A DNA stretch of 64,000 nt from Oscillospiraceae bacterium (GTDB taxonomy: Bacteria > Bacillota > Clostridia > Oscillospirales > Ruminococcaceae), in contig SVMR01000009.1 of the NCBI GenBank assembly GCA_015067315.1, positions 16,815 through 80,814 of the forward strand. Reading direction: 5' to 3'. Below the pieces are notes generated by a model. It was not told the DNA's origin, searched no databases, and worked only from the letters and a program-made list of their open reading frames with translations. The position numbers were made by a program, and so were the translations under genes. This document shows, in pieces, positions 6 through 48,630 of this stretch; position 1 is the stretch's first letter; each line of letters starts with the position of its first letter.

Positions 6-878
6 TTATTCCTTGCTCCAGATTGCGGAGGAACCGCAGGGAAGAGCCATTCCGCTTGCGGTTGCCGGAAGTCCGATTTCTTCCGCGGAAACTTTTCCGC
101 CGAATTTTTTCATCGCGCTTCCGAGAACGTATGCCATGGTTGAAGCGGAAAGTCCGGTTGTGTAGGAATTGAGAAGAACGAAAAGCGGTTCTTCGGTAAG
201 TACTTCAGAAACGAGGCTTACAAGTTCAAAAACATGTTCCTCAAGCTTCCATACTTCGCCGCCGGGACCTCTTCCATAGGAAGGCGGATCGAGGATTACG
301 GCGTCATATTTGCTTCCGCGGCGGATTTCCCTTTCAACAAATTTTTTGCAGTCGTCCACTATCCAGCGGACAGGTTTTCCCGAAAGTCCGGAAAGTTCGG
401 CGTTTTCCCTTGCCCAATGGACCATTCCTTTTGCCGCATCCACATGGCAGACGGAAGCTCCCGCGGAAGCCGCCGCAATGGTTGCGCCGCCGGTGTATGC
501 AAAAAGGTTGAGAACTCGGATTTCTCTGCCTTCGGATTTTGCTTCTTTTATTTTTTCAATCATCATATCCCAGTTGACGGCCTGTTCCGGAAAAAGTCCG
601 GTGTGCTTAAAACCTGTGGGGCTGATTTTGAAGGTAAGGTCTTTATAATTTATCTTCCAGAATTCCGGAAGTTCTCTGCGGTATTCCCAATGTCCGCCGC
701 CCTGGGATGAACGGACGTATCTTGCGTCCGCGTGTTTCCACATGGGATGTTCCTTCGGGGTGTTCCAAATAACCTGGGGGTCGGGTCTTATAAGAATGAC
801 TTTTCCCCAGCGTTCAAGTCTTTCGCCTTCGGAACAATCGAGGAGTTCATAATCTTTCCAGTCTTTTGTGTATCTCAT
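6..878 (-). CDS. class I SAM-dependent methyltransferase (RlmI-like catalytic domain, no PUA domain)
   Basis: 290-aa ORF. SAM-binding loop LNLFAYTGGATIAAA and catalytic-type motif ILDPPSYGRG. Same strand as glmM, 12-nt gap. Confidence 0.7.
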   Translation of the reverse strand: MRYTKDWKDYELLDCSEGERLERWGKVILIRPDPQVIWNTPKEHPMWKHADARYVRSSQGGGHWEYRRELPEFWKINYKDLTFKISPTGFKHTGLFPEQAVNWDMMIEKIKEAKSEGREIRVLNLFAYTGGATIAAASAGASVCHVDAAKGMVHWARENAELSGLSGKPVRWIVDDCKKFVEREIRRGSKYDAVILDPPSYGRGPGGEVWKLEEHVFELVSLVSEVLTEEPLFVLLNSYTTGLSASTMAYVLGSAMKKFGGKVSAEEIGLPATASGMALPCGSSAIWSKE

Positions 879-34295: not shown

Positions 34296-34328
34296 GTAAC
34301 GGGCGACCATTGCGGTCGCCCGTTTTTC
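34296..34328 (+). terminator. rho-independent terminator of the ABC operon (stem related to the GC hairpin repeat)
   Basis: Hairpin acgggcgacc-attgc-ggtcgcccgt followed by TTTTTCTTTTT. Confidence 0.8.
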
Positions 34329-34348
34329 TTTTTAAGGAGCGTTTTAAA

Positions 34349-35797
34349 ATGGATAAAAAAGAACTTTATACATATATTGACGAAAACAAGGGTATTTTTG
34401 AAGAACTTTCCGATAAAATCTGGGGATTTGCGGAAATTTCCCTTAAAGAACACGAATCCGCAAAGGCATATAAATCCCTTCTTGAAGAACTGGGTTTTAA
34501 GGTCGAAACCGGTCTTGCGGGGGTTGAAACCGCCTTTTCCGGAACTTACGGAAGCGGAAGACCCATAATCGGAATCCTCGGCGAATTTGACGCTCTTTCC
34601 GGTCTTTCCCAAAAAGCCGGACTTACCGTCCACGATGAACTTGTTTCCGGCGGAAGCGGTCACGGCTGCGGTCATAATCTTCTCGGCGCAGGTTCTCTTT
34701 CCGCCGCCTATGCGGTAAAAAAATATCTTGAAGAAAAAGGCGAAGGCAGCGGAACCGTTATTTTCTATGGCTGCCCCGGCGAAGAAGGCGGCGCAGGAAA
34801 AGCTTTTATGGCAAAGCAGGATCTGTTTTATAATCTTGATGCGGCTCTCACCTGGCATCCGGACGATTCCAACCAGGTCACAAGCGGTTCCTATCTTGCC
34901 TGCGTACAGGTTGAATATAAATTCGAAGGCGTTGCCGCCCATGCGGCAGGCTGTCCTCATATGGGAAGAAGCGCTCTTGACGCAGTTGAACTTATGAACA
35001 TCGGCGTTCAGTTCCTGCGGGAACATATGCCCATAAGCGACAGAATCCATTATTCCATAACCGATGCGGGCGGCATTTCCCCGAACGTTGTTCAGCCCAC
35101 CGCCCAGGTTCTTTATATGGTCCGTTCCGACACCGTTGCAAAGGTGAAAAATCTTCTTGCAAGGGTCGAGGATATTGCAAAAGGCGCCGCGCTTATGACC
35201 GGAACAACCCTTAAACGCCGCTTTATTGACGGAACCGCGGATGTTGTTCCGAACTCCGTCCTCGAAAAAGCGATGTATAAGAACTTCAGCGAAACCCAGC
35301 TTCCGGAATATACCGAAGAGGAACTTGCCTTTGCCGAGGAACTTAAAAAGACCTATCTCACCGAAGGACTTCCGGGTTTTGCTTCAAATTTCAGTCCCGA
35401 AATCGCCGCTTATACCGCTGAAAAAACCAATAACGGCGAAAAGGCGCAGAACGATTTTCTTATGCCCCTTTACCATTCCGAAGTCACCCTTCCCGGTTCA
35501 ACCGACGTCGGCGACGTAAGCTGGCAGACCCCCACGGCGCAGATCAACACCGCAACCTGGACAAGCGGAATTCCCGGTCACAGCTGGCAGGTCGTTTCCA
35601 TGGGAAAATCCACCATTGCCAAAAAAGGCATGAATCTTGCGGCAAAGGTAATCGCCGCAACGGCGGTTGATCTTTTCGAAAACCCCGAACTTCTTTCCGC
35701 CGCAAAAGCCGAATTCCTCGAAAAAACGAAATCCGGCTTCGTAAGTCCCATTGAGGACGGCGCAGTTCCCGCCATTGCAGGAGAAAAAATTCTTTAA
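34349..35797 (+). CDS. M20 family amidohydrolase (AbgB-like)
   Basis: Start at MDKKELYTYIDENK with RBS AAGGAG. Motif GSGHGCGHNLLGAG is typical of the AbgB/aminobenzoyl-glutamate utilisation subfamily. Confidence 0.8.
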   Translation: MDKKELYTYIDENKGIFEELSDKIWGFAEISLKEHESAKAYKSLLEELGFKVETGLAGVETAFSGTYGSGRPIIGILGEFDALSGLSQKAGLTVHDELVSGGSGHGCGHNLLGAGSLSAAYAVKKYLEEKGEGSGTVIFYGCPGEEGGAGKAFMAKQDLFYNLDAALTWHPDDSNQVTSGSYLACVQVEYKFEGVAAHAAGCPHMGRSALDAVELMNIGVQFLREHMPISDRIHYSITDAGGISPNVVQPTAQVLYMVRSDTVAKVKNLLARVEDIAKGAALMTGTTLKRRFIDGTADVVPNSVLEKAMYKNFSETQLPEYTEEELAFAEELKKTYLTEGLPGFASNFSPEIAAYTAEKTNNGEKAQNDFLMPLYHSEVTLPGSTDVGDVSWQTPTAQINTATWTSGIPGHSWQVVSMGKSTIAKKGMNLAAKVIAATAVDLFENPELLSAAKAEFLEKTKSGFVSPIEDGAVPAIAGEKIL

Positions 35798-35802
35798 AAA
35801 AT

Positions 35803-36206
35803 GCCCCCTTGCCTAAAGGGGGCTGTCACGCTTTTAAGAACAGGTGCGTGACTGGGGGATTCTTGTATAGATTACCGGTTGTTTTTAAATTGGACGGGGT
35901 TAACACCTCATCCGTCACGCTTTATTCTTGCGGCGCGACACCCTCCCCTCAAGGGGAAGGCTAACCCTCCGGGAATCCTTTTTTGCGGGCGACCACAAGG
36001 GTCGCCCCTACGGAGTTCTAATTAACTTTCTGCTTTACATTTAAAAGAATCCCTCCACCATCTTCGATGGTCCCCCCAACTCTTGCGGTACCCAAAATAT
36101 TCTGCGGCATACGCCTTGAATATTTTGACCGCGGCGCGCCAAACCCTGCTCGCTTCATCGTCCACAGGACGCGCTTCACAGGCTTTACTCTTTAGGCAAG
36201 GGAGCC
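35803..36206 (+). repeat. hairpin-repeat family, long foldback form (R8)
   Basis: Left end H1-H2-tgggggattc (35803-35862). Internal modules follow, including cctcatccgtc..., cctcccct/ggggaagg and gggcgacc/gggtcgccc. The right end is the left end inverted: gaatccctcc-accatc/gatggt (36047-36071), then a 130-nt arm (36077-36206) ending in an inverted H1. Confidence 0.85.
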
Positions 36207-36214
36207 TTGATATG

Positions 36215-36252
36215 GAAAAATCCCGTGCTCATTTTGAGCACGGGATTTTTTG
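36215..36252. terminator. bidirectional terminator (serves pckA on the minus strand)
   Basis: Hairpin aaaaatcccgtgctc-atttt-gagcacgggattttt. Confidence 0.85.
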
Positions 36253-36270
36253 TTTGAGCATGGAGGAATT

Positions 36271-38034
36271 TTATTCAAGATTTTTTTCTAGTTTTTCAAG
36301 TTCCGCCATGAGTTCCTTCGGGAGCTTTTCTCCGAATTTTTTATAGAACTCACGGATACCTTCCGCTTCCGTTTTCCAAAGCTCCTTATCAACGGAAAGA
36401 AGGCCGGCAAGAGTTTCCCTGTCAATATCAAGACCTTCGATATTGATATCTTCCGGTTTCGGTTCAAAGCCGATTGCGGTTTCTTCCGCTTCCGCGGTTC
36501 CGTCACAGCGTCCGAGAATCCACATTAGAACTCTCATATTATCGCCGAATCCGGGCCAGATGAATTTTCCTTCGTCATCGGTTCTGAACCAGTTTACGTT
36601 AAAAATCTTCGGCGCTTTGTCGCCGAGTTTTTCGCCCATATCAAGCCAATGCCGGAAATAATCCGCCATATGGTAACCGCAGAAAGGAAGCATTGCCATA
36701 GGGTCCCGGCGGACAACGCCGACCGCGCCGGCGGCTGCTGCGGTTGTTTCGGAAGCCATTGTTGAACCTACGAAAACGCCGTGTTTCCAATCCCGGGACT
36801 GATATACAAGCGGAGCGGTTTTTGCTCTTCTTCCGCCGAAAATCATCGCAGAAATCGGAACGCCTTCCGGATCATCGAATTTCGGGCTTACGCAGGGGCA
36901 GTTTTTCGCCGGAGCGGTGAAGCGGCTGTTGGGATGGGCGGCTTTTTCCGTTGCGGTGGAACCGCTCCAGGGGTTGCCTTTCCAGTCGATTGCGTTTTCC
37001 GGCGGATTTTTATCAAGACCTTCCCACCAGACGGTGTTGTCGTCAAGGTTATGGGCAACGTTGGTGAAAATGGTGTTTTTCATGGTCGCCGCAAGGGCGT
37101 TGGGGTTCGATTTTTTGTTGGTGCCGGGGGCAACTCCGAAGAAACCGTTTTCCGGGTTGACCGCCCAAAGTCTGCCGTCTTTTCCGATTCGGAGCCAGGC
37201 GATATCGTCGCCCACGCACCAGACTTTATAGCCTTTTTCCCTGTAAAGTTCCGGCGGAATAAGCATTGCAAGGTTTGTTTTTCCGCAGGCGGAGGGGAAA
37301 GCGGCGGTTACGTATTTTATTTCGCCTTCCGGGTTTTCAATTCCGAGGATGAGCATATGTTCCGCCATCCAGCCTTCCTTCCAGCCCTGCCAGGAAGCGA
37401 TTCGGAGAGCGAAGCATTTTTTGCCCTGGAGAACGTTTCCGCCGTAGTTGGAGTTGAGGGACCAGATTGCATTGTCCTCCGGGAACTGGACTATATATCT
37501 CTGTTCTTCGTCAACGTCAAGGGAACAATGAAGACCCTTTACAAAATCGGAGGAATCACCGAGCTGATCAAGAGCGGCTTTTCCCATTCTTGTCATGATT
37601 TCCATATTGAGAACAACGTAGATGCTGTCGGTAAGTTCAATGCCGATTTTTGCAAAAGGAGAACCGAGCTGACCCATGGAATATGGAACAACGTACATGG
37701 TTCTATCTTTCATCGCGCCGTCCGCAAGAGGACTCAGACGCGCATACATTTCATCTTTTTCGACCCAGTTGTTTGTGGGGCCGGCCATTTCCTTTTTGGT
37801 GGTGCAGATGAAAGTTCTCGCTTCAACTCTTGCAACGTCGTTGGGTTTTGTTCTGTGAAGAAGACATCCGGGGAGTTTTTCCGGGTTAAGTTCTTCCATA
37901 AGTCCCGTTGCAACAGCTTCCGCTTTAAGAGCTTTCATCTGTTCCTCGTCGCCGCTTATCCAGACTACCTTATCCGGTTTTACAAGCGCTTTCATTTCTT
38001 CGATCCAGTTAAGTACGTAAGAGTTGTTGGTCAT
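36271..38034 (-). CDS. pckA: phosphoenolpyruvate carboxykinase (GTP)
   Basis: Start at MTNNSYVLNWIEEMK with RBS AGGAG. Kinase-1a loop FPSACGKTN. Full-length GTP-type PEPCK. The ORF-track start at 38166 is an extension. Confidence 0.93.
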   Translation of the reverse strand: MTNNSYVLNWIEEMKALVKPDKVVWISGDEEQMKALKAEAVATGLMEELNPEKLPGCLLHRTKPNDVARVEARTFICTTKKEMAGPTNNWVEKDEMYARLSPLADGAMKDRTMYVVPYSMGQLGSPFAKIGIELTDSIYVVLNMEIMTRMGKAALDQLGDSSDFVKGLHCSLDVDEEQRYIVQFPEDNAIWSLNSNYGGNVLQGKKCFALRIASWQGWKEGWMAEHMLILGIENPEGEIKYVTAAFPSACGKTNLAMLIPPELYREKGYKVWCVGDDIAWLRIGKDGRLWAVNPENGFFGVAPGTNKKSNPNALAATMKNTIFTNVAHNLDDNTVWWEGLDKNPPENAIDWKGNPWSGSTATEKAAHPNSRFTAPAKNCPCVSPKFDDPEGVPISAMIFGGRRAKTAPLVYQSRDWKHGVFVGSTMASETTAAAAGAVGVVRRDPMAMLPFCGYHMADYFRHWLDMGEKLGDKAPKIFNVNWFRTDDEGKFIWPGFGDNMRVLMWILGRCDGTAEAEETAIGFEPKPEDINIEGLDIDRETLAGLLSVDKELWKTEAEGIREFYKKFGEKLPKELMAELEKLEKNLE

Positions 38035-38076
38035 TGGCTGACAGCTCCTTTCCGAAAAAGAAATACCGTTTGGTCT

Positions 38077-38104
38077 ATTATACATCAAAAGAAAAATTTT
38101 GCAA
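38077..38104 (-). promoter_or_regulatory. putative sigma-A promoter for pckA
   Basis: On the minus strand: TTGCAA (38099-38104), 16-nt spacer, TATAAT (38077-38082). Confidence 0.45.
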
Positions 38105-38142
38105 GGCTTTATTTTTAAAATTGCAAAAATTTTCCGAATTTT

Positions 38143-38197
38143 ATTTTCAAAAAAGGATATTTGCAATATTTTGAATTTAAAACTGCAAATATCCTTT
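38143..38197 (-). terminator. terminator-like long hairpin after tsaD
   Basis: Perfect 14-bp inverted repeat aaaggatatttgca (38152-38165) / tgcaaatatccttt (38184-38197) with an 18-nt loop. T run on the minus strand. Confidence 0.6.
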
Positions 38198-38210
38198 CAA
38201 AAAACATATT

Positions 38211-39227
38211 TTATTCAAAATCCTCGTCAATGGGCATAGTGGGTCTTGCGTTAAGCGAAAGATCCGCAAAATGTCCCGCAAGGGCTTCGTAATAAGCCTG
38301 GGAACCGATCATTGCCGCATTATCCCCGCAAAGTTCAAGGGGCGGAACAAAAAGTTCAAGATGTCGGCGCTTGCATTCTCTTTCAAGCAGGGCGCGAAGA
38401 CCGCTGTTTGCGGAAACTCCGCCGGCGGCAACGATTGTTTTATATCCGCCTTCCTTCGCCGCAAGCATTGTTCTGTCAACAAGGGCATGGCAGATAACGT
38501 CCTGATAGGAAGCGCAGAGATCGGGAATATTGATTTCTTCGCCGCGCTGCTCCGCGTTATGAAGAATGTTCACAACTGCGGTTTTAAGTCCGGAAAAGCT
38601 CATATCAAGGGGGCAGCCTTCGACTTTCGGCTTTGGAAGATTGAAAGCCTTCGAGTTGCCTTCTTTTGAAACTCTGTCGAGATGAACGCCGCCGGGATAG
38701 GGAAGTCCCATTGCTCTTGCGGCTTTATCAAAAGCTTCTCCCGCGGCATCGTCCCTTGTTTTTCCGAGAATCCGGAATTTTGTATAATCGGAAACCTCGA
38801 CAATATGGCTGTGTCCGCCGGAAACAACAAGGCAAAGGAAGGGCGGTTTAAGTTCCGGATGGGCAAGATAGTTCGCCGCAATATGACCTTTCAGATGATG
38901 CACGGGAATAAGTTTTTTTCCTGTTGCAAGGGAAAGGCCTTTTGCAAAGTTCACTCCCACAAGGAGCGCGCCGATAAGTCCCGGCGCCGCCGTTACCGCA
39001 ATATGATCCACCTCTTCGAGGGTCATATCGGCGTCCGCAAGGGCTTTTTCCGCGACGGCAACGATATTTTCCGTATGTCTGCGGGAGGCTATTTCGGGCA
39101 CTACGCCGCCGTAAAGACCGTGTTCAGCAACCTGGGTGTTTATCACCGAGGAAAGGATTTTTCTTCCGTCCTCGATTATTGCGGCGGCGGTTTCGTCGCA
39201 GGAAGATTCAATTGCTAAAATTCTCAT
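38211..39227 (-). CDS. tsaD: tRNA N6-adenosine threonylcarbamoyltransferase
   Basis: 338 aa. N-terminus MRILAIESSCDETAAAI, SGGHSH motif, C-terminal GDNAAMIG. Confidence 0.95.
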   Translation of the reverse strand: MRILAIESSCDETAAAIIEDGRKILSSVINTQVAEHGLYGGVVPEIASRRHTENIVAVAEKALADADMTLEEVDHIAVTAAPGLIGALLVGVNFAKGLSLATGKKLIPVHHLKGHIAANYLAHPELKPPFLCLVVSGGHSHIVEVSDYTKFRILGKTRDDAAGEAFDKAARAMGLPYPGGVHLDRVSKEGNSKAFNLPKPKVEGCPLDMSFSGLKTAVVNILHNAEQRGEEINIPDLCASYQDVICHALVDRTMLAAKEGGYKTIVAAGGVSANSGLRALLERECKRRHLELFVPPLELCGDNAAMIGSQAYYEALAGHFADLSLNARPTMPIDEDFE

Positions 39228-39264
39228 ATATTCATCGCCTTACAATACATTATATTCTATGATG

Positions 39265-39294
39265 ATTATAACATAAGGCGAAGGTTTTTTACAA
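39265..39294 (-). promoter_or_regulatory. putative sigma-A promoter for tsaD
   Basis: On the minus strand: TTGTAA (39289-39294), 18-nt spacer, TATAAT (39265-39270). Confidence 0.4.
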
Positions 39295-39302
39295 TATTTT
39301 GT

Positions 39303-39470
39303 TTAATTTTCTGTTTTGATGTTTTCAAGAACCGCTTTTACCGAAAGTTCCCCCGCAAAGCGAAAAAGCGTTTCCGCCATTAATTTTTCCGCCGTTGTTC
39401 CCGTTCTTCTCGCGATTTTTTCGTAAAAATCCGATGCTGCCGAATCCATAAAAATCGTATATCTTTTCAA
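39303..39470 (-). CDS. small ribbon-helix-helix (CopG/antitoxin-like) protein, 55 aa, below the ORF-track size cutoff
   Basis: Hand translation gives (TTG)KRYTIFMDSAASDFYEKIARRTGTTAEKLMAETLFRFAGELSVKAVLENIKTEN. RBS AAGGAGAG is 11 nt upstream of the TTG. The strand-helix-helix pattern is typical of RHH proteins. An alternative ATG lies at 39449. Confidence 0.4.
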   Translation of the reverse strand: MKRYTIFMDSAASDFYEKIARRTGTTAEKLMAETLFRFAGELSVKAVLENIKTEN

Positions 39471-39544
39471 AAAATACTGCTCTCCTTTTTCCGTTTTTAA
39501 ATTAGTTTTTGAATTTTTTTCGGAAATATTAATTTTTTAAAAAG

Positions 39545-39876
39545 GCCCCCTTGCCTAAAGGGGGCTGGATTTTTTAACCGCTTGCGGTTAAAAAAGACTG
39601 GGGGATTCTGTATGGATTACCGGCTGTTTTAAATTGGACGGGGTTGACACCTCATCCGTCACGCCCTCCGGGTTCCTTTTTTGCGGGCGACCACATAGGG
39701 TCGCCCCTACTGCATTTAAATGAATCCCCCCGCCACTTCGTGGCCCTCCCAACTCTTGCGGTACCCAAAATATTCTGCGGCATACGCCTTGAATATTTTG
39801 ACCGCGGCGCCAAACCCTGCTCGCTTCATCGTCCACAGGACGCGCTTCACAGGCTTTGCTCTTTAGGCAAGGGGGG
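39545..39876 (+). repeat. hairpin-repeat family, long foldback form (R9)
   Basis: Same module order as 35803-36206. Terminal 15-nt inverted repeat cccccttgcctaaag. The right arm 39750-39876 is nearly identical to 36077-36206. Confidence 0.88.
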
Positions 39877-39904
39877 CTTTCCTGCAACATTTTGCATTCT
39901 GCAT

Positions 39905-47382: not shown

Positions 47383-48630
47383 TCAGTCGTCAATGCGTTT
47401 TCTGCCGATGATGAAAAGACCCACAGCAGCGCCAACAAGAACGATGAGAAGAACGATGATGATCCATGCCCAGATCGGAACGCCGCCTTTTTCTTCGGGT
47501 TCTTCAACTTCTCCGCCTATTACGATAATTTCTTCTTCGGAAGAAGATTCGGAAGAATCGGTAATTTCTTCCTCAGAAGAGGATTCGGAAGAAATGGGGA
47601 GTTCTTCCTCGGAAGAAGAATCGGAAGAAACGGGGAGTTCTTCTTCGGAAGAGGATTCGGAAGAAACGGGAGGTTCCGGTTCGGAAGAAGAGGAAGAGCT
47701 GGAAACCGGTTCTTCAACCTTTTCGTTTACTGTTACGTCAAAAGTCGCGGTTTTTGCTTTTTCGCCTTCGCCGTAAGTTACGGTTACGGTCTGGGTTCCC
47801 GCTTCGTCGAATTTTGTAACGTCGGTTTTAAAACCTTCGGTAATGTCTTCTGCGCTTCCGTCGCCTTTATGAAGGCGGACGGTCATTCCGGTTGTATCAA
47901 GATTTTCGCCCACGGTATAGGTGAGTTTTTCCGGTTTTTTGAAAATTTCGATTCTGAGAATGTCATTGGGATTTGCGTATTCGAATTTTACGCGGAAGTG
48001 ATCCTCGAAAAGCTTGAGATCGCCGTTCTGGTTATAGGGCGCTTTGAGATATACAACAACGTTCTGCGCTTCGTCGGAAGTGAAAACCGCGGGTTCGACC
48101 CAGCATAATTCGGTTACGTCAATATCCTTCGGCTCGTACATATCGGTTTCTTTGTTGAACTTATAGACTGTTGCAATTACTTTAAGTCCGGTGAGGTCAA
48201 CGGTATCGCCGAGATAATAAACAAGTTTATCGGGCCATTTGTAAATACTCATGGAATGAACGTAATCAAAGGGAGATTCTTCGCCCACAACCACGGTGTA
48301 ATCGATTTTTTCAACAACGGTTCCGTCTTCTTTTTTATAAGTTACAGAAAAATTATAGGTTCCGGCTTTTGTGGGGGTTCCGGAAAGGGTCATTTTGAAA
48401 ACATAATCGCCGAAGGTGTTTTTATATGCCCAGGTTCCGGAAAGTTTCATTCCTTCCGGAACGTTTCCGCTTTTGGAAAAGGTTTTTGCGCCGAGAACGG
48501 TTTCGATTACGCTGTCAAATTCAAGACCAACATATGCGCCTTTTATTTCTGTTGCAGCCATTGCCTGTACCGGAACAAGCAATACTATCATAAGAACAGC
48601 AAGAAAAGCGCTGAAAATTCTTTTTTTCAT
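47383..48630 (-). CDS. cell-surface protein with Ig-like (Big_3-type) domains, Ser/Glu-rich stalk and C-terminal membrane anchor
   Basis: 415 aa. Signal peptide ending VQAMAA. Repeated pattern P(D/E)KLxYxxG(D/E)xxDxxG(L/M). Stalk of four SSESSSEEE units. C-terminal TM helix plus GRKRIDD. No LPXTG motif. Confidence 0.75.
   Translation of the reverse strand: MKKRIFSAFLAVLMIVLLVPVQAMAATEIKGAYVGLEFDSVIETVLGAKTFSKSGNVPEGMKLSGTWAYKNTFGDYVFKMTLSGTPTKAGTYNFSVTYKKEDGTVVEKIDYTVVVGEESPFDYVHSMSIYKWPDKLVYYLGDTVDLTGLKVIATVYKFNKETDMYEPKDIDVTELCWVEPAVFTSDEAQNVVVYLKAPYNQNGDLKLFEDHFRVKFEYANPNDILRIEIFKKPEKLTYTVGENLDTTGMTVRLHKGDGSAEDITEGFKTDVTKFDEAGTQTVTVTYGEGEKAKTATFDVTVNEKVEEPVSSSSSSSEPEPPVSSESSSEEELPVSSDSSSEEELPISSESSSEEEITDSSESSSEEEIIVIGGEVEEPEEKGGVPIWAWIIIVLLIVLVGAAVGLFIIGRKRIDD
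47529..47672 (-). repeat. in-frame 36-bp tandem repeat, about 4 units, inside the surface-protein gene
   Basis: The DNA period of 36 nt encodes PPVSSESSSEEE / LPVSSDSSSEEE / LPISSESSSEEE / ITDSSESSSEEE. Boundaries are approximate. Confidence 0.8.

What the first reader, a model, noticed from the sequence alone, without database searches (positions are those of the whole stretch)
35803..36206. Long foldback form of the repeat with inverted module ends and a structured 130-nt arm
This 404-nt element lies between the convergent M20 amidohydrolase and pckA genes. It starts with H1-H2-tgggggattc (35803-35862) and carries several internal modules. Those include a cctcatccgtc... unit, cctcccct/ggggaagg at 35942-35960 and gggcgacc/gggtcgccc at 35987-36007. 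It then repeats the first module inverted: gaatccctcc, accatc/gatggt (36047-36071), and finally ctctttaggcaagggag (36188-36204), the inverse of the left-end cccttgcctaaag. This gives a MITE-like or foldback architecture. Between the inverted H2 and H1 sits a 110-130-nt segment (36077-36206). It contains a long hairpin: gcggt + caaaatattc, loop tgcggcatacgcctt, gaatattttg + accgc. A second stem cgtcc/ggacg is flanked by a direct gcttca repeat. No ORF here looks coding.
Basis: seen in the sequence. Interest (0 to 1): 0.65.

Follow-up and report, generated by a model that had tools for sequence, protein, structure and literature searches.

The report
Nested hairpin repeat with tRNA-linked module
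This 404-base non-coding insert is a stack of small mobile hairpin repeats, and its 112-base "arm" belongs to an undescribed, strongly folded element family that in related gut bacteria sits beside tRNA genes carrying copies of the tRNA's ends.

Summary
The element (35803-36206) is an insertion: seven sister species have only 75-81 nt between the M20 stop codon and the shared terminator.

It is not one simple MITE. It is a nested composite with two layers.
- Backbone, about 290 nt, REP/BIME-like foldback: two inverted H1-H2 modules enclose a CGTC-headed module and a GTAG-tagged REP. A RAYT-like gene flanked by such REPs lies elsewhere in the genome. The backbone recurs without the arm at two other loci.
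- Arm, 112 nt (36078-36193), inserted between H2' and H1'.

The arm is a separate family:
- This genome has 3 copies; sister species have up to more than 30.
- A covariance model finds it in 90 of 401 genomes of the order (40 of 179 genera).
- All helices show compensatory changes: 27 of 34 pairs, 94.7% paired against 68% in shuffles.
- Rfam has no match.

Outside this genus, 28 of 52 copies lie within 300 nt of a tRNA gene, and 26 of those 28 have the reverse strand co-oriented with the tRNA. They carry copies of the tRNA's 5' or 3' end, the same build as E. coli's tRNA-linked repeats.

I read it as mobile non-coding DNA moved in trans. Whether the fold acts as DNA or RNA is unresolved.

The parts
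35803..35823 (+). H1 hairpin (gcccccttgcctaaagggggc), left terminal inverted repeat. On the minus strand it reads as an intrinsic-terminator-like hairpin followed by TTTTTT.
   Evidence: Sequence. Terminator-like call on the minus strand at 35823-35803. About 55 genomic matches to positions 1-62.
35825..35862 (+). H2 hairpin with a variable stem (gtcacgc...gcgtgac), followed by the conserved tgggggattc.
   Evidence: The stem differs between copies while the flanks are kept.
35906..35961 (+). B module: cctcatccGTC head, hairpin gtcacgc/gcgcgac, ACC, then hairpin cctcccct/aggggaagg. This is the CGTC-headed hairpin type.
   Evidence: The same module hosts the arm in other species.
35987..36011 (+). 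Module E: perfect hairpin gggcgacc-acaa-gggtcgccc followed by CTAC, that is, a GTAG-tagged REP read on the other strand.
   Evidence: The genome has 72 perfect hairpin+CTAC sites against 1 in a shuffled genome. The same type flanks the RAYT-like gene at G000 C4:97081-97560 in inverted orientation.
36047..36077 (+). Inverted H2 module: gaatccctcc, hairpin accatc-ttc-gatggt, then cccccc.
36078..36193 (+). The arm, an inserted 112-116-nt structured element. P1 domain 36085-36132: gcggt/accgc, caaaatattc/gaatattttg, ggc/gcc. Junction ggcgcgcc. P2 36141-36149 with 36178-36186. P3 36152-36153 with 36173-36174. P4 36159-36163 with 36167-36171.
   Evidence: Covariance model R1 scores 128 bits here. 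Covariation is shown.
36188..36204 (+). H1' (ctctttaggcaagggag), right terminal inverted repeat. It is a diverged H1 whose 5' half abuts the arm.
36216..36251 (.). Bidirectional terminator shared by the M20 and PEPCK genes. It is not part of the element. It is conserved in all sister species and marks the right edge of the empty site.
   Evidence: Alignment of orthologous spacers.
39547..39880 (+). Second long-form copy with the same module order, other hairpin stems, no B module, and a near-identical arm (39751-39864).

Best explanation
The 404 bases are a nested pile of non-autonomous, hairpin-forming mobile DNA modules. They have settled between the M20 stop codon and the terminator it shares with pckA.

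Layer 1 is a foldback backbone of about 290 nt, of the REP/BIME (REPIN-like) kind. Two H1-H2 modules in inverted orientation enclose a CGTC-headed B module and a GTAG-tagged REP. For the GTAG REPs, the likely mover is the genome's RAYT-like Y1 (HUH) transposase. Its gene is flanked by the same REP type in inverted orientation.

Layer 2 is the 112-nt arm, a separate element inserted between H2' and H1' of the right-hand module.

The arm belongs to a family spread through the order. Its two-domain fold is kept by Watson-Crick compensatory changes. It enters DNA next to or inside hairpin loops. In this genus the hosts are REP-like hairpins. In other genera they are the D-loop side or the T-loop/anticodon-loop side of tRNA genes, where it leaves a copy of the tRNA's 5' or 3' end. 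That is the same build as E. coli's tRNA-linked repeats.

Shown:
- Insertion and absence at orthologous sites.
- Nesting of the arm in host modules.
- The conserved fold.
- The tRNA linkage.
- The RAYT-REP pairing.

Inferred:
- The arm is moved in trans by an enzyme that reads the folded single strand. That enzyme is unknown.
- At this locus the element has no host function beyond lengthening a read-through or 3' untranslated region.
For: **Insertion**
- The orthologous M20-pckA spacer is 75-81 nt in seven sister species and 473 nt here.
- Two other species carry different module sets at the same spot.

**Composite nature**
- blastn resolves modules with separate copy numbers.
- The backbone without the arm sits at C9:6248-6566 and C33:22332-22653. 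It reads ...gatggtccccc|tccctttaggcaagggaggc, and the window copy has the arm exactly there.

**Arm as a discrete unit**
- It occurs in at least 6 flank contexts, each inside another module.
- The single-copy X locus lacks the arm in this genome (C2:92494-92678) but holds it in 9 sister genomes.
- In a further genus, tRNA-Glu and tRNA-Asn are 5 nt apart in one species. In another they are 206 nt apart, with Asn(1-22) plus the arm between them.

**Fold**
- 68 copies from the genus: 96.7% paired; covariation 0.137 against 0.053 shuffled; 0 of 500 shuffles reach it.
- 31 order-level copies: 94.7% paired against 68.1%; 27 of 34 pairs changed on both sides; 0 of 500.

**Distribution**
- 16 of 151 genomes sampled one per genus in the family.
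- 90 of 401 genomes in the order.

**tRNA linkage**
- 28 of 52 copies lie within 300 nt of a tRNA gene; 26 of 28 have the reverse strand co-oriented with the tRNA.
- They carry tRNA-end copies.

**DNA-level hint**
- Changes are almost all Watson-Crick to Watson-Crick. Only 4 one-sided cells occur among 1025.
- G.U is 21 cells against A.C 38 cells over three alignments.
- Neighbouring hairpins carry C-GNA-G triloops on one strand. These are known as very stable DNA mini-hairpins (own knowledge).

**RAYT**
- G000 C4:97081-97560 scores 75 bits to NF047646, REP-associated tyrosine transposase, and 26 bits to PF01797.
- It is flanked by GTAGGGAACGGTCTTGACCGTTCC and GGAACGGTCAAGACCGTTCCCTAC.
- The genome has 72 hairpin+CTAC REPs against 1 in a shuffled genome.
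Against: - No target-site duplication and no defined cleavage motif could be read at the arm's ends.
- No enzyme is linked to the arm. Canonical IS200 TnpA genes of sister species are not next to arms. Some arm-bearing genomes (G004, G014, G015) show no Y1 transposase at all, though these are incomplete MAGs.
- The RAYT score is just under NCBIfam's cut-off (75 against 80 bits).
- Conserved unpaired nucleotides, co-orientation with tRNA genes, and a depth-95 contig of tandem arms in a pig-gut metatranscriptome fit an RNA role as well.
- The order-level alignments were fitted to the model's structure, which favours pairing counts.
- Copies compared for the arm-less backbone are paralogues, not orthologues.
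Confidence: 0.55

Rival explanations
1. The arm is first of all a small structured RNA of the tRNA-linked-repeat kind. It would be made by read-through or co-transcription with the gene or tRNA upstream on the reverse strand. The fold would serve an RNA function such as protein binding or processing. Its dispersal and nesting in repeats would be secondary.
For: - The fold and the unpaired motifs are conserved across an order.
- The reverse strand is co-oriented with the tRNA in 26 of 28 cases. It often sits inside tRNA operons or directly behind the tRNA's own promoter copy.
- On the minus strand, both window copies lie between a gene's terminator and the terminator-like H1. E. coli rrA/rrB/rrF tRNA-linked repeats lie between dual terminators in the same way (PMC8144298).
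- A.C exceeds G.U on the model strand, 38 against 21, which means G.U pairs on the reverse strand.
- A metatranscriptome contig of tandem arms has depth 95.
Against: - G.U pairs are only about 0.3-1.3% of helix cells on either strand, low for an RNA family.
- In one flank context a terminator-like hairpin with a T-run follows the arm on the opposite (model) strand.
- There is no orientation bias relative to protein genes in the genus, 34 against 27 by crude ORF calling.
- Presence/absence at orthologous sites shows recent movement.
- The RNA runs are unstranded contigs and may hold DNA.
Confidence: 0.27
2. The arm and its tRNA-end copies are scars of integrase-mediated site-specific integration, that is, att remnants or CIME-like integrase-less elements. 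The REP-embedded copies would be secondary recombination products.
For: - Direct repeats run from the T-loop or anticodon loop to the CCA end. Examples are 23 nt in L175, 29 nt in L197 and 42 nt in L171. These match the classic tRNA sublocations used by tyrosine integrases (own knowledge of Williams 2002).
- Tandem stacking of units occurs (L170, L172).
Against: - Units are only 170-250 nt and no integrase is nearby.
- Many different tRNAs (Leu, Pro, Met, Trp, Ser, Asn) and both gene ends are used by one conserved element.
- An att arm would not keep a four-helix fold by compensatory changes across an order.
- In this genome the copies have no tRNA sequence at all.
Confidence: 0.08
3. The whole 404 nt is a single classical MITE, a deletion derivative of an IS with terminal inverted repeats, moved as one piece by a DDE transposase.
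For: - Inverted ends of 13-16 nt.
- A second copy with the same module order lies 3.7 kb away.
- The insertion is absent from sister species.
Against: - No target-site duplication.
- The full 404-nt unit occurs only twice, at 73% identity, while its modules occur by the dozen on their own.
- The ends are themselves copies of a 50-60-nt stand-alone module.
- The arm is absent from two otherwise collinear copies.
Confidence: 0.05
4. A decayed gene or chance structure.
For: Small ORFs of 42-87 codons overlap the region.
Against: - Hundreds of related copies exist.
- Variation is compensatory in helices.
- Sister species have clean empty sites.
Confidence: 0.01

Closest known systems
REP / BIME / REPIN elements with their RAYT transposase (Nunvar 2010, PMC2817692; Bertels & Rainey 2011, PMC3116915; Di Nocera 2013, PMC3733652)
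   Same: - Short GC-rich palindromes with a GTAG tag (here hairpin+CTAC) and CGTC-headed hairpins.
- High copy number and intergenic position, often behind genes.
- Clustering into mosaics with inverted pairs.
- A single RAYT-like gene flanked by its REPs in inverted orientation.
   Different: - The host is a Firmicute (Oscillospiraceae). The survey in PMC3733652 names no Firmicutes or Clostridia.
- Hairpin stems are hypervariable between copies while the flanks are conserved.
- The mosaics are long, 400-700 nt, with many module types.
- They carry a nested 112-nt multi-helix element that REP/BIME systems are not known to hold.
E. coli tRNA-linked repeats (TLRs; Egan & Landy 1978; Rudd 1999; Stenum et al. 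2021, PMC8144298), including rtT and RrA/RrB/RrF
   Same: Outside this genus:
- The arm family sits in tRNA operons on the tRNA's strand.
- It is often in tandem.
- It ends with a copy of the neighbouring tRNA's 3' end.

The window copies lie between two terminators on the minus strand, as rrA/rrB/rrF do.
   Different: - No sequence or Rfam match (rtT RF00391 was not hit).
- The arm family also occurs upstream of tRNAs with a copy of the tRNA's first 20-26 nt.
- It has a fold supported by covariation across an order.
- In this genus it is not tRNA-linked at all but nested in REP-like modules.
- TLRs have not been shown to be mobile.
IS200/IS605-derived palindrome-associated elements and other HUH/Y1-mobilised single-strand elements
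   Same: - No terminal inverted repeats within the arm itself.
- No target duplication.
- Asymmetric ends with a hairpin near each end.
- Watson-Crick-only conservation, compatible with folded single-stranded DNA.
   Different: - The two hairpin domains of the arm are unlike each other.
- No conserved 4-5-nt target was found next to the left end.
- No TnpA gene is linked.
Integrase-less att-flanked elements at tRNA genes (CIMEs) and tRNA-targeting genomic islands
   Same: Direct repeats of the tRNA 3' part starting in the T-loop or anticodon loop, and tandem accretion.
   Different: - The element is 170-250 nt without genes.
- Many tRNA species and also their 5' ends are used.
- It has a conserved multi-helix core.

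Membership tests
REP/BIME with RAYT (applies to the backbone) | Short imperfect or perfect palindrome with a conserved GTAG (or CGTC) tetranucleotide at one foot | tested here: met
   35987-36011 is gggcgacc-acaa-gggtcgccc+CTAC. The genome has 72 such sites against 1 in a shuffled genome. The B and F modules begin with ccGTC plus a hairpin.
REP/BIME with RAYT (applies to the backbone) | High copy number, extragenic | tested here: met
   174 blastn segments from this one element. About 300 repeat loci cover 3.7% of the genome. The window copies are intergenic.
REP/BIME with RAYT (applies to the backbone) | A RAYT (Y1 HUH transposase) gene flanked by its cognate REPs in inverted orientation | tested here: met
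   C4:97081-97560 has an HIH motif and a C-terminal Y motif. It scores 75 bits to NF047646 (cut-off 80) and 26.3 bits to PF01797 (cut-off 23). Inverted GGAACGGTC..GACCGTTCC+CTAC hairpins lie on both sides. The NCBIfam score is slightly under its cut-off.
REP/BIME with RAYT (applies to the backbone) | RAYT binds and cleaves the REP single strand | not testable with these tools
   Needs biochemistry.
Classical MITE | Terminal inverted repeats | tested here: met
   gcccccttgcctaaag at the left pairs with ctttaggcaaggg at the right, 13-16 nt.
Classical MITE | Target-site duplication of fixed length | tested here: not met
   Flanks of four collinear copies and the empty sites of seven species show none.
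Classical MITE | A parent IS sharing the ends | tested here: inconclusive
   None appeared among own-genome matches or near Y1 genes. No exhaustive search was made.
tRNA-linked repeats (applies to the arm) | Located in a tRNA or rRNA operon, on its strand | tested here: not met
   For this copy and the other two copies in this genome: not met. They lie behind pckA, behind another protein gene, and behind the 6S RNA gene. For the family outside the genus: met. 28 of 52 copies lie within 300 nt of a tRNA and 26 of 28 are co-oriented.
tRNA-linked repeats (applies to the arm) | 3' end identical to the last 18-19 nt of the upstream tRNA/rRNA | tested here: not met
   This copy has no tRNA-derived sequence. 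In other genera the unit ends with 20-42 nt of the tRNA 3' end (L171, L172, L175, L197, L199). Upstream forms instead begin with tRNA nt 1-20..26.
tRNA-linked repeats (applies to the arm) | Sequence relation to E. coli TLRs (rtT, RF00391) | tested here: not met
   No Rfam family matches the arm at E <= 1 or in 25 further loci.
Structured non-coding element (RNA or single-stranded DNA) | Helices kept by compensatory changes in independent lineages | tested here: met
   27 of 34 pairs show changes on both sides. Controls with the partner slid by 1-3 columns drop to 37-47% paired.
Structured non-coding element (RNA or single-stranded DNA) | Transcribed as a discrete RNA from a defined strand | tested here: inconclusive
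   Only unstranded metatranscriptome contigs are available. One contig of tandem arms has depth 95. The G.U against A.C counts are weak.

The most novel reading that the evidence does not exclude
The arm may represent a class of mobile elements that carry no protein gene and are defined by their structure. These would home to hairpin loops: tRNA D-, anticodon- and T-loops in most Oscillospirales, and REP-type hairpins in this genus. One still unknown mechanism would then underlie both tRNA-linked repeats and part of the growth of REP/BIME mosaics. The folded strand itself would be the recognition or guide part.
Probability: 0.2. Interest if true: 0.85.

Novelty: new variant of a known kind. 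Interest (0 to 1): 0.62.

Why it matters
Two old puzzles of bacterial genomes meet in one 404-nt element.
- How do REP/BIME mosaics grow?
- What are tRNA-linked repeats? They have been known since 1978 and most still have no function.

Here the same conserved, folded 112-nt unit is found in two settings. It is nested in REP-like hairpin modules, and it is lodged at tRNA genes with copies of their ends. Clean empty sites exist in both settings. That makes the mobility of tRNA-linked-repeat-like units directly testable.

The finding also extends REP-RAYT systems to gut Firmicutes, where repeats fill about 3-4% of a 1.9-Mb genome. It adds a strong candidate family, present in 22% of sampled genomes of an order, that Rfam lacks.

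In practice such repeats break short-read assemblies of gut MAGs. Many copies sit at contig ends.

Tried and rejected
- **Rfam:** scans of the region and of 25 related loci found no family for the arm. The only hits were a weak chance match at the terminator, 6S RNA, tRNAs, Gut-1 and a fluoride riboswitch nearby.
- **Viral contigs:** four exact-pattern hits were chance matches, and the model found nothing.
- **IS200/IS605 TnpA as the arm's mover:** the strong TnpA genes of sister species are not flanked by arm-like ends.
- **Integron attC reading:** no RYYYAAC/GTTRRRY boxes are at the right places. Rejected on sequence.
- **Plus-strand RNA inferred from G.U wobble in H1':** rejected after counting. 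G.U is not enriched on that strand.
- **'Inverted tRNA piece' after upstream-type units:** mostly explained by the self-complementarity of the anticodon stem, that is, a direct degenerate remainder of the tRNA. The inverted T-arm piece in downstream-type units is real.
- **Orientation relative to protein genes:** no bias, but gene calls were crude.
- **Population empty site in metagenome contigs:** one weak joint only, 35810 to 36216 in X7 at depth 3.2. Not used as evidence.
- **MFE-based G.U control with tRNAs:** uninformative.
- **Orthologue search in the genus of G154:** that genus holds only one genome.

Full report
**1. The observation**

The stretch lies between an M20 peptidase gene (34310-35797, +) and a GTP-type PEP carboxykinase gene (36271-38166, -). 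Folded as one DNA strand, the region is far more stable than shuffles (z = -5.8).

The genome is a 1.92-Mb, 37-contig assembly with 44% G+C. Its relatives are uncultured Oscillospiraceae from ruminant guts.

**2. It is an insertion**

I fetched the orthologous pckA 3' ends of the genus and extracted the M20-pckA spacers.
- Seven sister species have 75-81 nt there: the stop codon, about 20 AT-rich bases, and the same bidirectional terminator.
- This genome has 473 nt.
- Two further species carry other, different module sets at the same spot.

The place is therefore a repeated landing site. No target-site duplication can be read.

**3. It is a composite**

blastn of the element against its own genome gives 174 segments. 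They resolve into modules with separate copy numbers:

| Module | Element positions | Copies |
|---|---|---|
| H1+H2+tgggggattc | 1-62 | about 55 |
| B module | about 100-162 | many |
| REP-like hairpin | 184-209 | many |
| Inverted H2 module | 232-274 | many |
| Arm | 276-404 | 3 |

Repeated loci cover about 70.9 kb, or 3.7% of the genome. A few long ones are coding tandem repeats and unrelated.

An alignment of the four collinear long copies is decisive. At C9:6248-6566 and C33:22332-22653 the backbone reads ...gaatccctccaccatcttcgatggtccccc|tccctttaggcaagggaggc. That is an intact inverted H1-H2 module. The two window copies have the arm inserted exactly between H2' and H1'.

The foldback backbone thus exists on its own, and the arm is a later guest.

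**4. The backbone is of the REP/BIME kind**

The module at 35987-36011 is a perfect hairpin followed by CTAC, that is, a GTAG-tagged REP on the other strand. The genome holds 72 perfect hairpin+CTAC sites (66 with CCCTAC) against 1 in a shuffled genome. Their stems are diverse.

A Y1 transposase search found one gene in this genome, at C4:97081-97560.
- It has the HUH motif (HIH) and a C-terminal tyrosine motif.
- It scores 75 bits to NCBIfam 'REP-associated tyrosine transposase' (cut-off 80) and 26 bits to PF01797.
- It is flanked by GTAGGGAACGGTCTTGACCGTTCC and GGAACGGTCAAGACCGTTCCCTAC in inverted orientation.

This is the REPtron arrangement described for RAYTs (PMC2817692, PMC3733652). Other modules begin with ccGTC plus a hairpin, the CGTC-tagged type of PMC3733652. 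That survey names no Firmicutes.

An earlier agent's note on another copy in this window reached the same filing. I re-derived it independently from the RAYT locus.

**5. The arm is a family of its own**

Sister species hold many more copies; one has more than 30, often at contig ends. From genome contigs I collected 68 copies. The fold has six helices:
- P1: three stacked helices with a 3-nt bulge.
- P2 enclosing P3 and P4.

In the genus, P1 is invariant in sequence. P2, P3 and P4 show compensatory changes from at least five independent variants. Cells are 96.7% paired; covariation is 0.137 against 0.053 shuffled; 0 of 500 shuffles reach it.

A covariance model finds full-length matches in:
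- 16 of 151 genomes sampled one per genus in the family;
- 90 of 401 genomes, 40 of 179 genera, in the order.

Most genomes have 1-3 copies, and some have up to 24. In these diverged copies every helix covaries, including P1. Cells are 94.7% paired against 68.1% shuffled, 27 of 34 pairs changed on both sides, and slid controls fall to 37-47%. This alignment is fitted to the model, which favours pairing.

Conserved unpaired motifs are the 5' CUCUUG, the RCC bulge, the junction GACCGC-KGC-GCC-A and the P4 loop. Rfam has no match.

**6. The arm moves as a unit and sits inside other modules**

In the genus it occurs in at least six flank contexts, each time inside another repeat module next to a hairpin.

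A conserved single-copy structured locus, X, lacks the arm in this genome (C2:92494-92678) but carries it at one fixed point in nine sister genomes. In three others the arm lies at a different point of X in the opposite orientation.

The composite 'inverted H2 module + arm + H1'' also occurs in another genus (L166).

**7. Elsewhere the arm is tRNA-linked**

Among 52 copies in 48 loci from other genera, 28 lie within 300 nt of a tRNA gene. In 26 of those 28 the reverse strand of the model runs with the tRNA. Chance would give a few per cent.

Two builds recur:
- **Upstream build:** a copy of tRNA nucleotides 1 to 20-26, ending at the 3' side of the D-loop, is fused to the reverse-strand arm. 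A degenerate remainder or an AT-rich spacer follows, then the intact tRNA. Seen with Leu, Pro, Ser, Asn and Met.
- **Downstream build:** tRNA, terminator, an inverted copy of the variable-loop/T-arm region, the arm, a small hairpin, then a direct copy from the T-loop (or anticodon loop) to CCA. Seen with Trp, Met and Pro.

Tandem units occur with periods of 168-225 nt.

An empty site exists here too. In one species tRNA-Glu and tRNA-Asn are 5 nt apart. In a congener they are 206 nt apart, with Asn(1-22) plus the arm between them. The first species instead has an arm unit behind tRNA-Asn.

Earlier notes of this scan describe like-built families at tRNA genes in other phyla. A later check named E. 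coli's tRNA-linked repeats as the nearest thing in print. I read that paper. E. coli K-12 has 22 TLRs, each ending in 18-19 nt of the upstream tRNA or rRNA 3' end. Most have no known function, and three lie between dual terminators and make small RNAs (PMC8144298).

**8. DNA or RNA?**

This is not settled.

For DNA:
- Changes are almost only Watson-Crick to Watson-Crick. Only 4 one-sided cells occur among 1025.
- G.U is rare and not above A.C on the model strand, 21 against 38 cells.
- Neighbouring hairpins have C-GNA-G triloops on one strand.
- There is no orientation bias relative to protein genes.

For RNA:
- The arm is co-oriented with tRNAs.
- Unpaired bases are conserved.
- The slight excess of A.C on the model strand equals G.U on the reverse strand.
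- On the minus strand, both window copies lie between a gene's terminator and the terminator-like H1 with a T-run.
- A pig-gut metatranscriptome contig of tandem arms has depth 95, against 3-10 for other pieces.

The RNA data are unstranded contigs.

**9. Verdict**

The finding is real and richer than a MITE. It is a REP/BIME-like foldback, in a Firmicute, with a RAYT-like gene in the genome. It hosts one copy of an undescribed, order-wide structured element that is tRNA-linked in other genera.

The best-supported reading is nested mobile non-coding DNA moved in trans (0.55). The main rival is a tRNA-linked-repeat-like small RNA (0.27). The two are not exclusive.

The mover of the arm and its insertion chemistry are unknown.

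Noticed in passing
G000 C4:97081-97560 (outside the window; locus L165:1082-1561): The RAYT-like gene carries a copy of its own REP hairpin (acggaacggtcaagaccgttccctacg) in frame inside the coding sequence, giving ...KTERSRPFPTL... This may explain why it scores just under the NCBIfam cut-off.
   Followed up: partly
G000 C2:92494-92680, minus strand (locus L163): Locus 'X' is a conserved, apparently single-copy region of about 190 nt with several hairpins (ccgccgtcggcctgaacgatggcgg ... cttttctttcagg ... ggtttcttttggttacaaaagaaatgggg). Rfam has no match. It is orthologous across the genus and is a repeated target of arm insertion at two different points.
   Followed up: partly
G000 C2:59057-59247, minus strand (locus L164:1258-1448): A 6S RNA gene (Rfam 65 bits) is followed on the same strand by a REP mosaic that holds the genome's third arm copy (C2:58858-58971). 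No copy of the 6S 3' end was seen.
   Followed up: partly
L191 (G486:C17:9918-10031): A genome placed in a different family of the order holds an arm almost identical to this genus's copies (134 bits). It sits inside the same B-module/REP mosaic. This is either recent horizontal transfer or a mis-binned contig.
   Followed up: no
L168:1251-1426 and L169:2597-2674: Gut-1 RNA motifs (RF01706, 44-60 bits) lie within 100-150 nt of arm copies in another genus. Gut-1 may be a further module of such repeat clusters.
   Followed up: no
L082 and L089 (other species of the genus): These arm copies carry a further insert of about 115 nt between the GGCGCC junction and P3, replacing the 5' strand of P2. 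This is nesting one level deeper.
   Followed up: no
window 47494-47709: A tandem 36-nt repeat (5 overlapping 72-nt copies, TTCTTC..GGAAGA-rich). It is probably a coding low-complexity repeat and is unrelated to the finding.
   Followed up: no
G000 C3:21246-22469 and C35:90184-91271: Long coding tandem repeats encoding Cys-rich units of about 40 aa (..CTETGLTEGKHCSVCG..) in large open frames. They inflate the repeat census but are unrelated.
   Followed up: partly
window 36207-39544: The two long-form elements lie in direct orientation 3.3 kb apart around pckA and tsaD. Their arms are about 97% identical, which makes them a substrate for deletion or duplication by homologous recombination.
   Followed up: no
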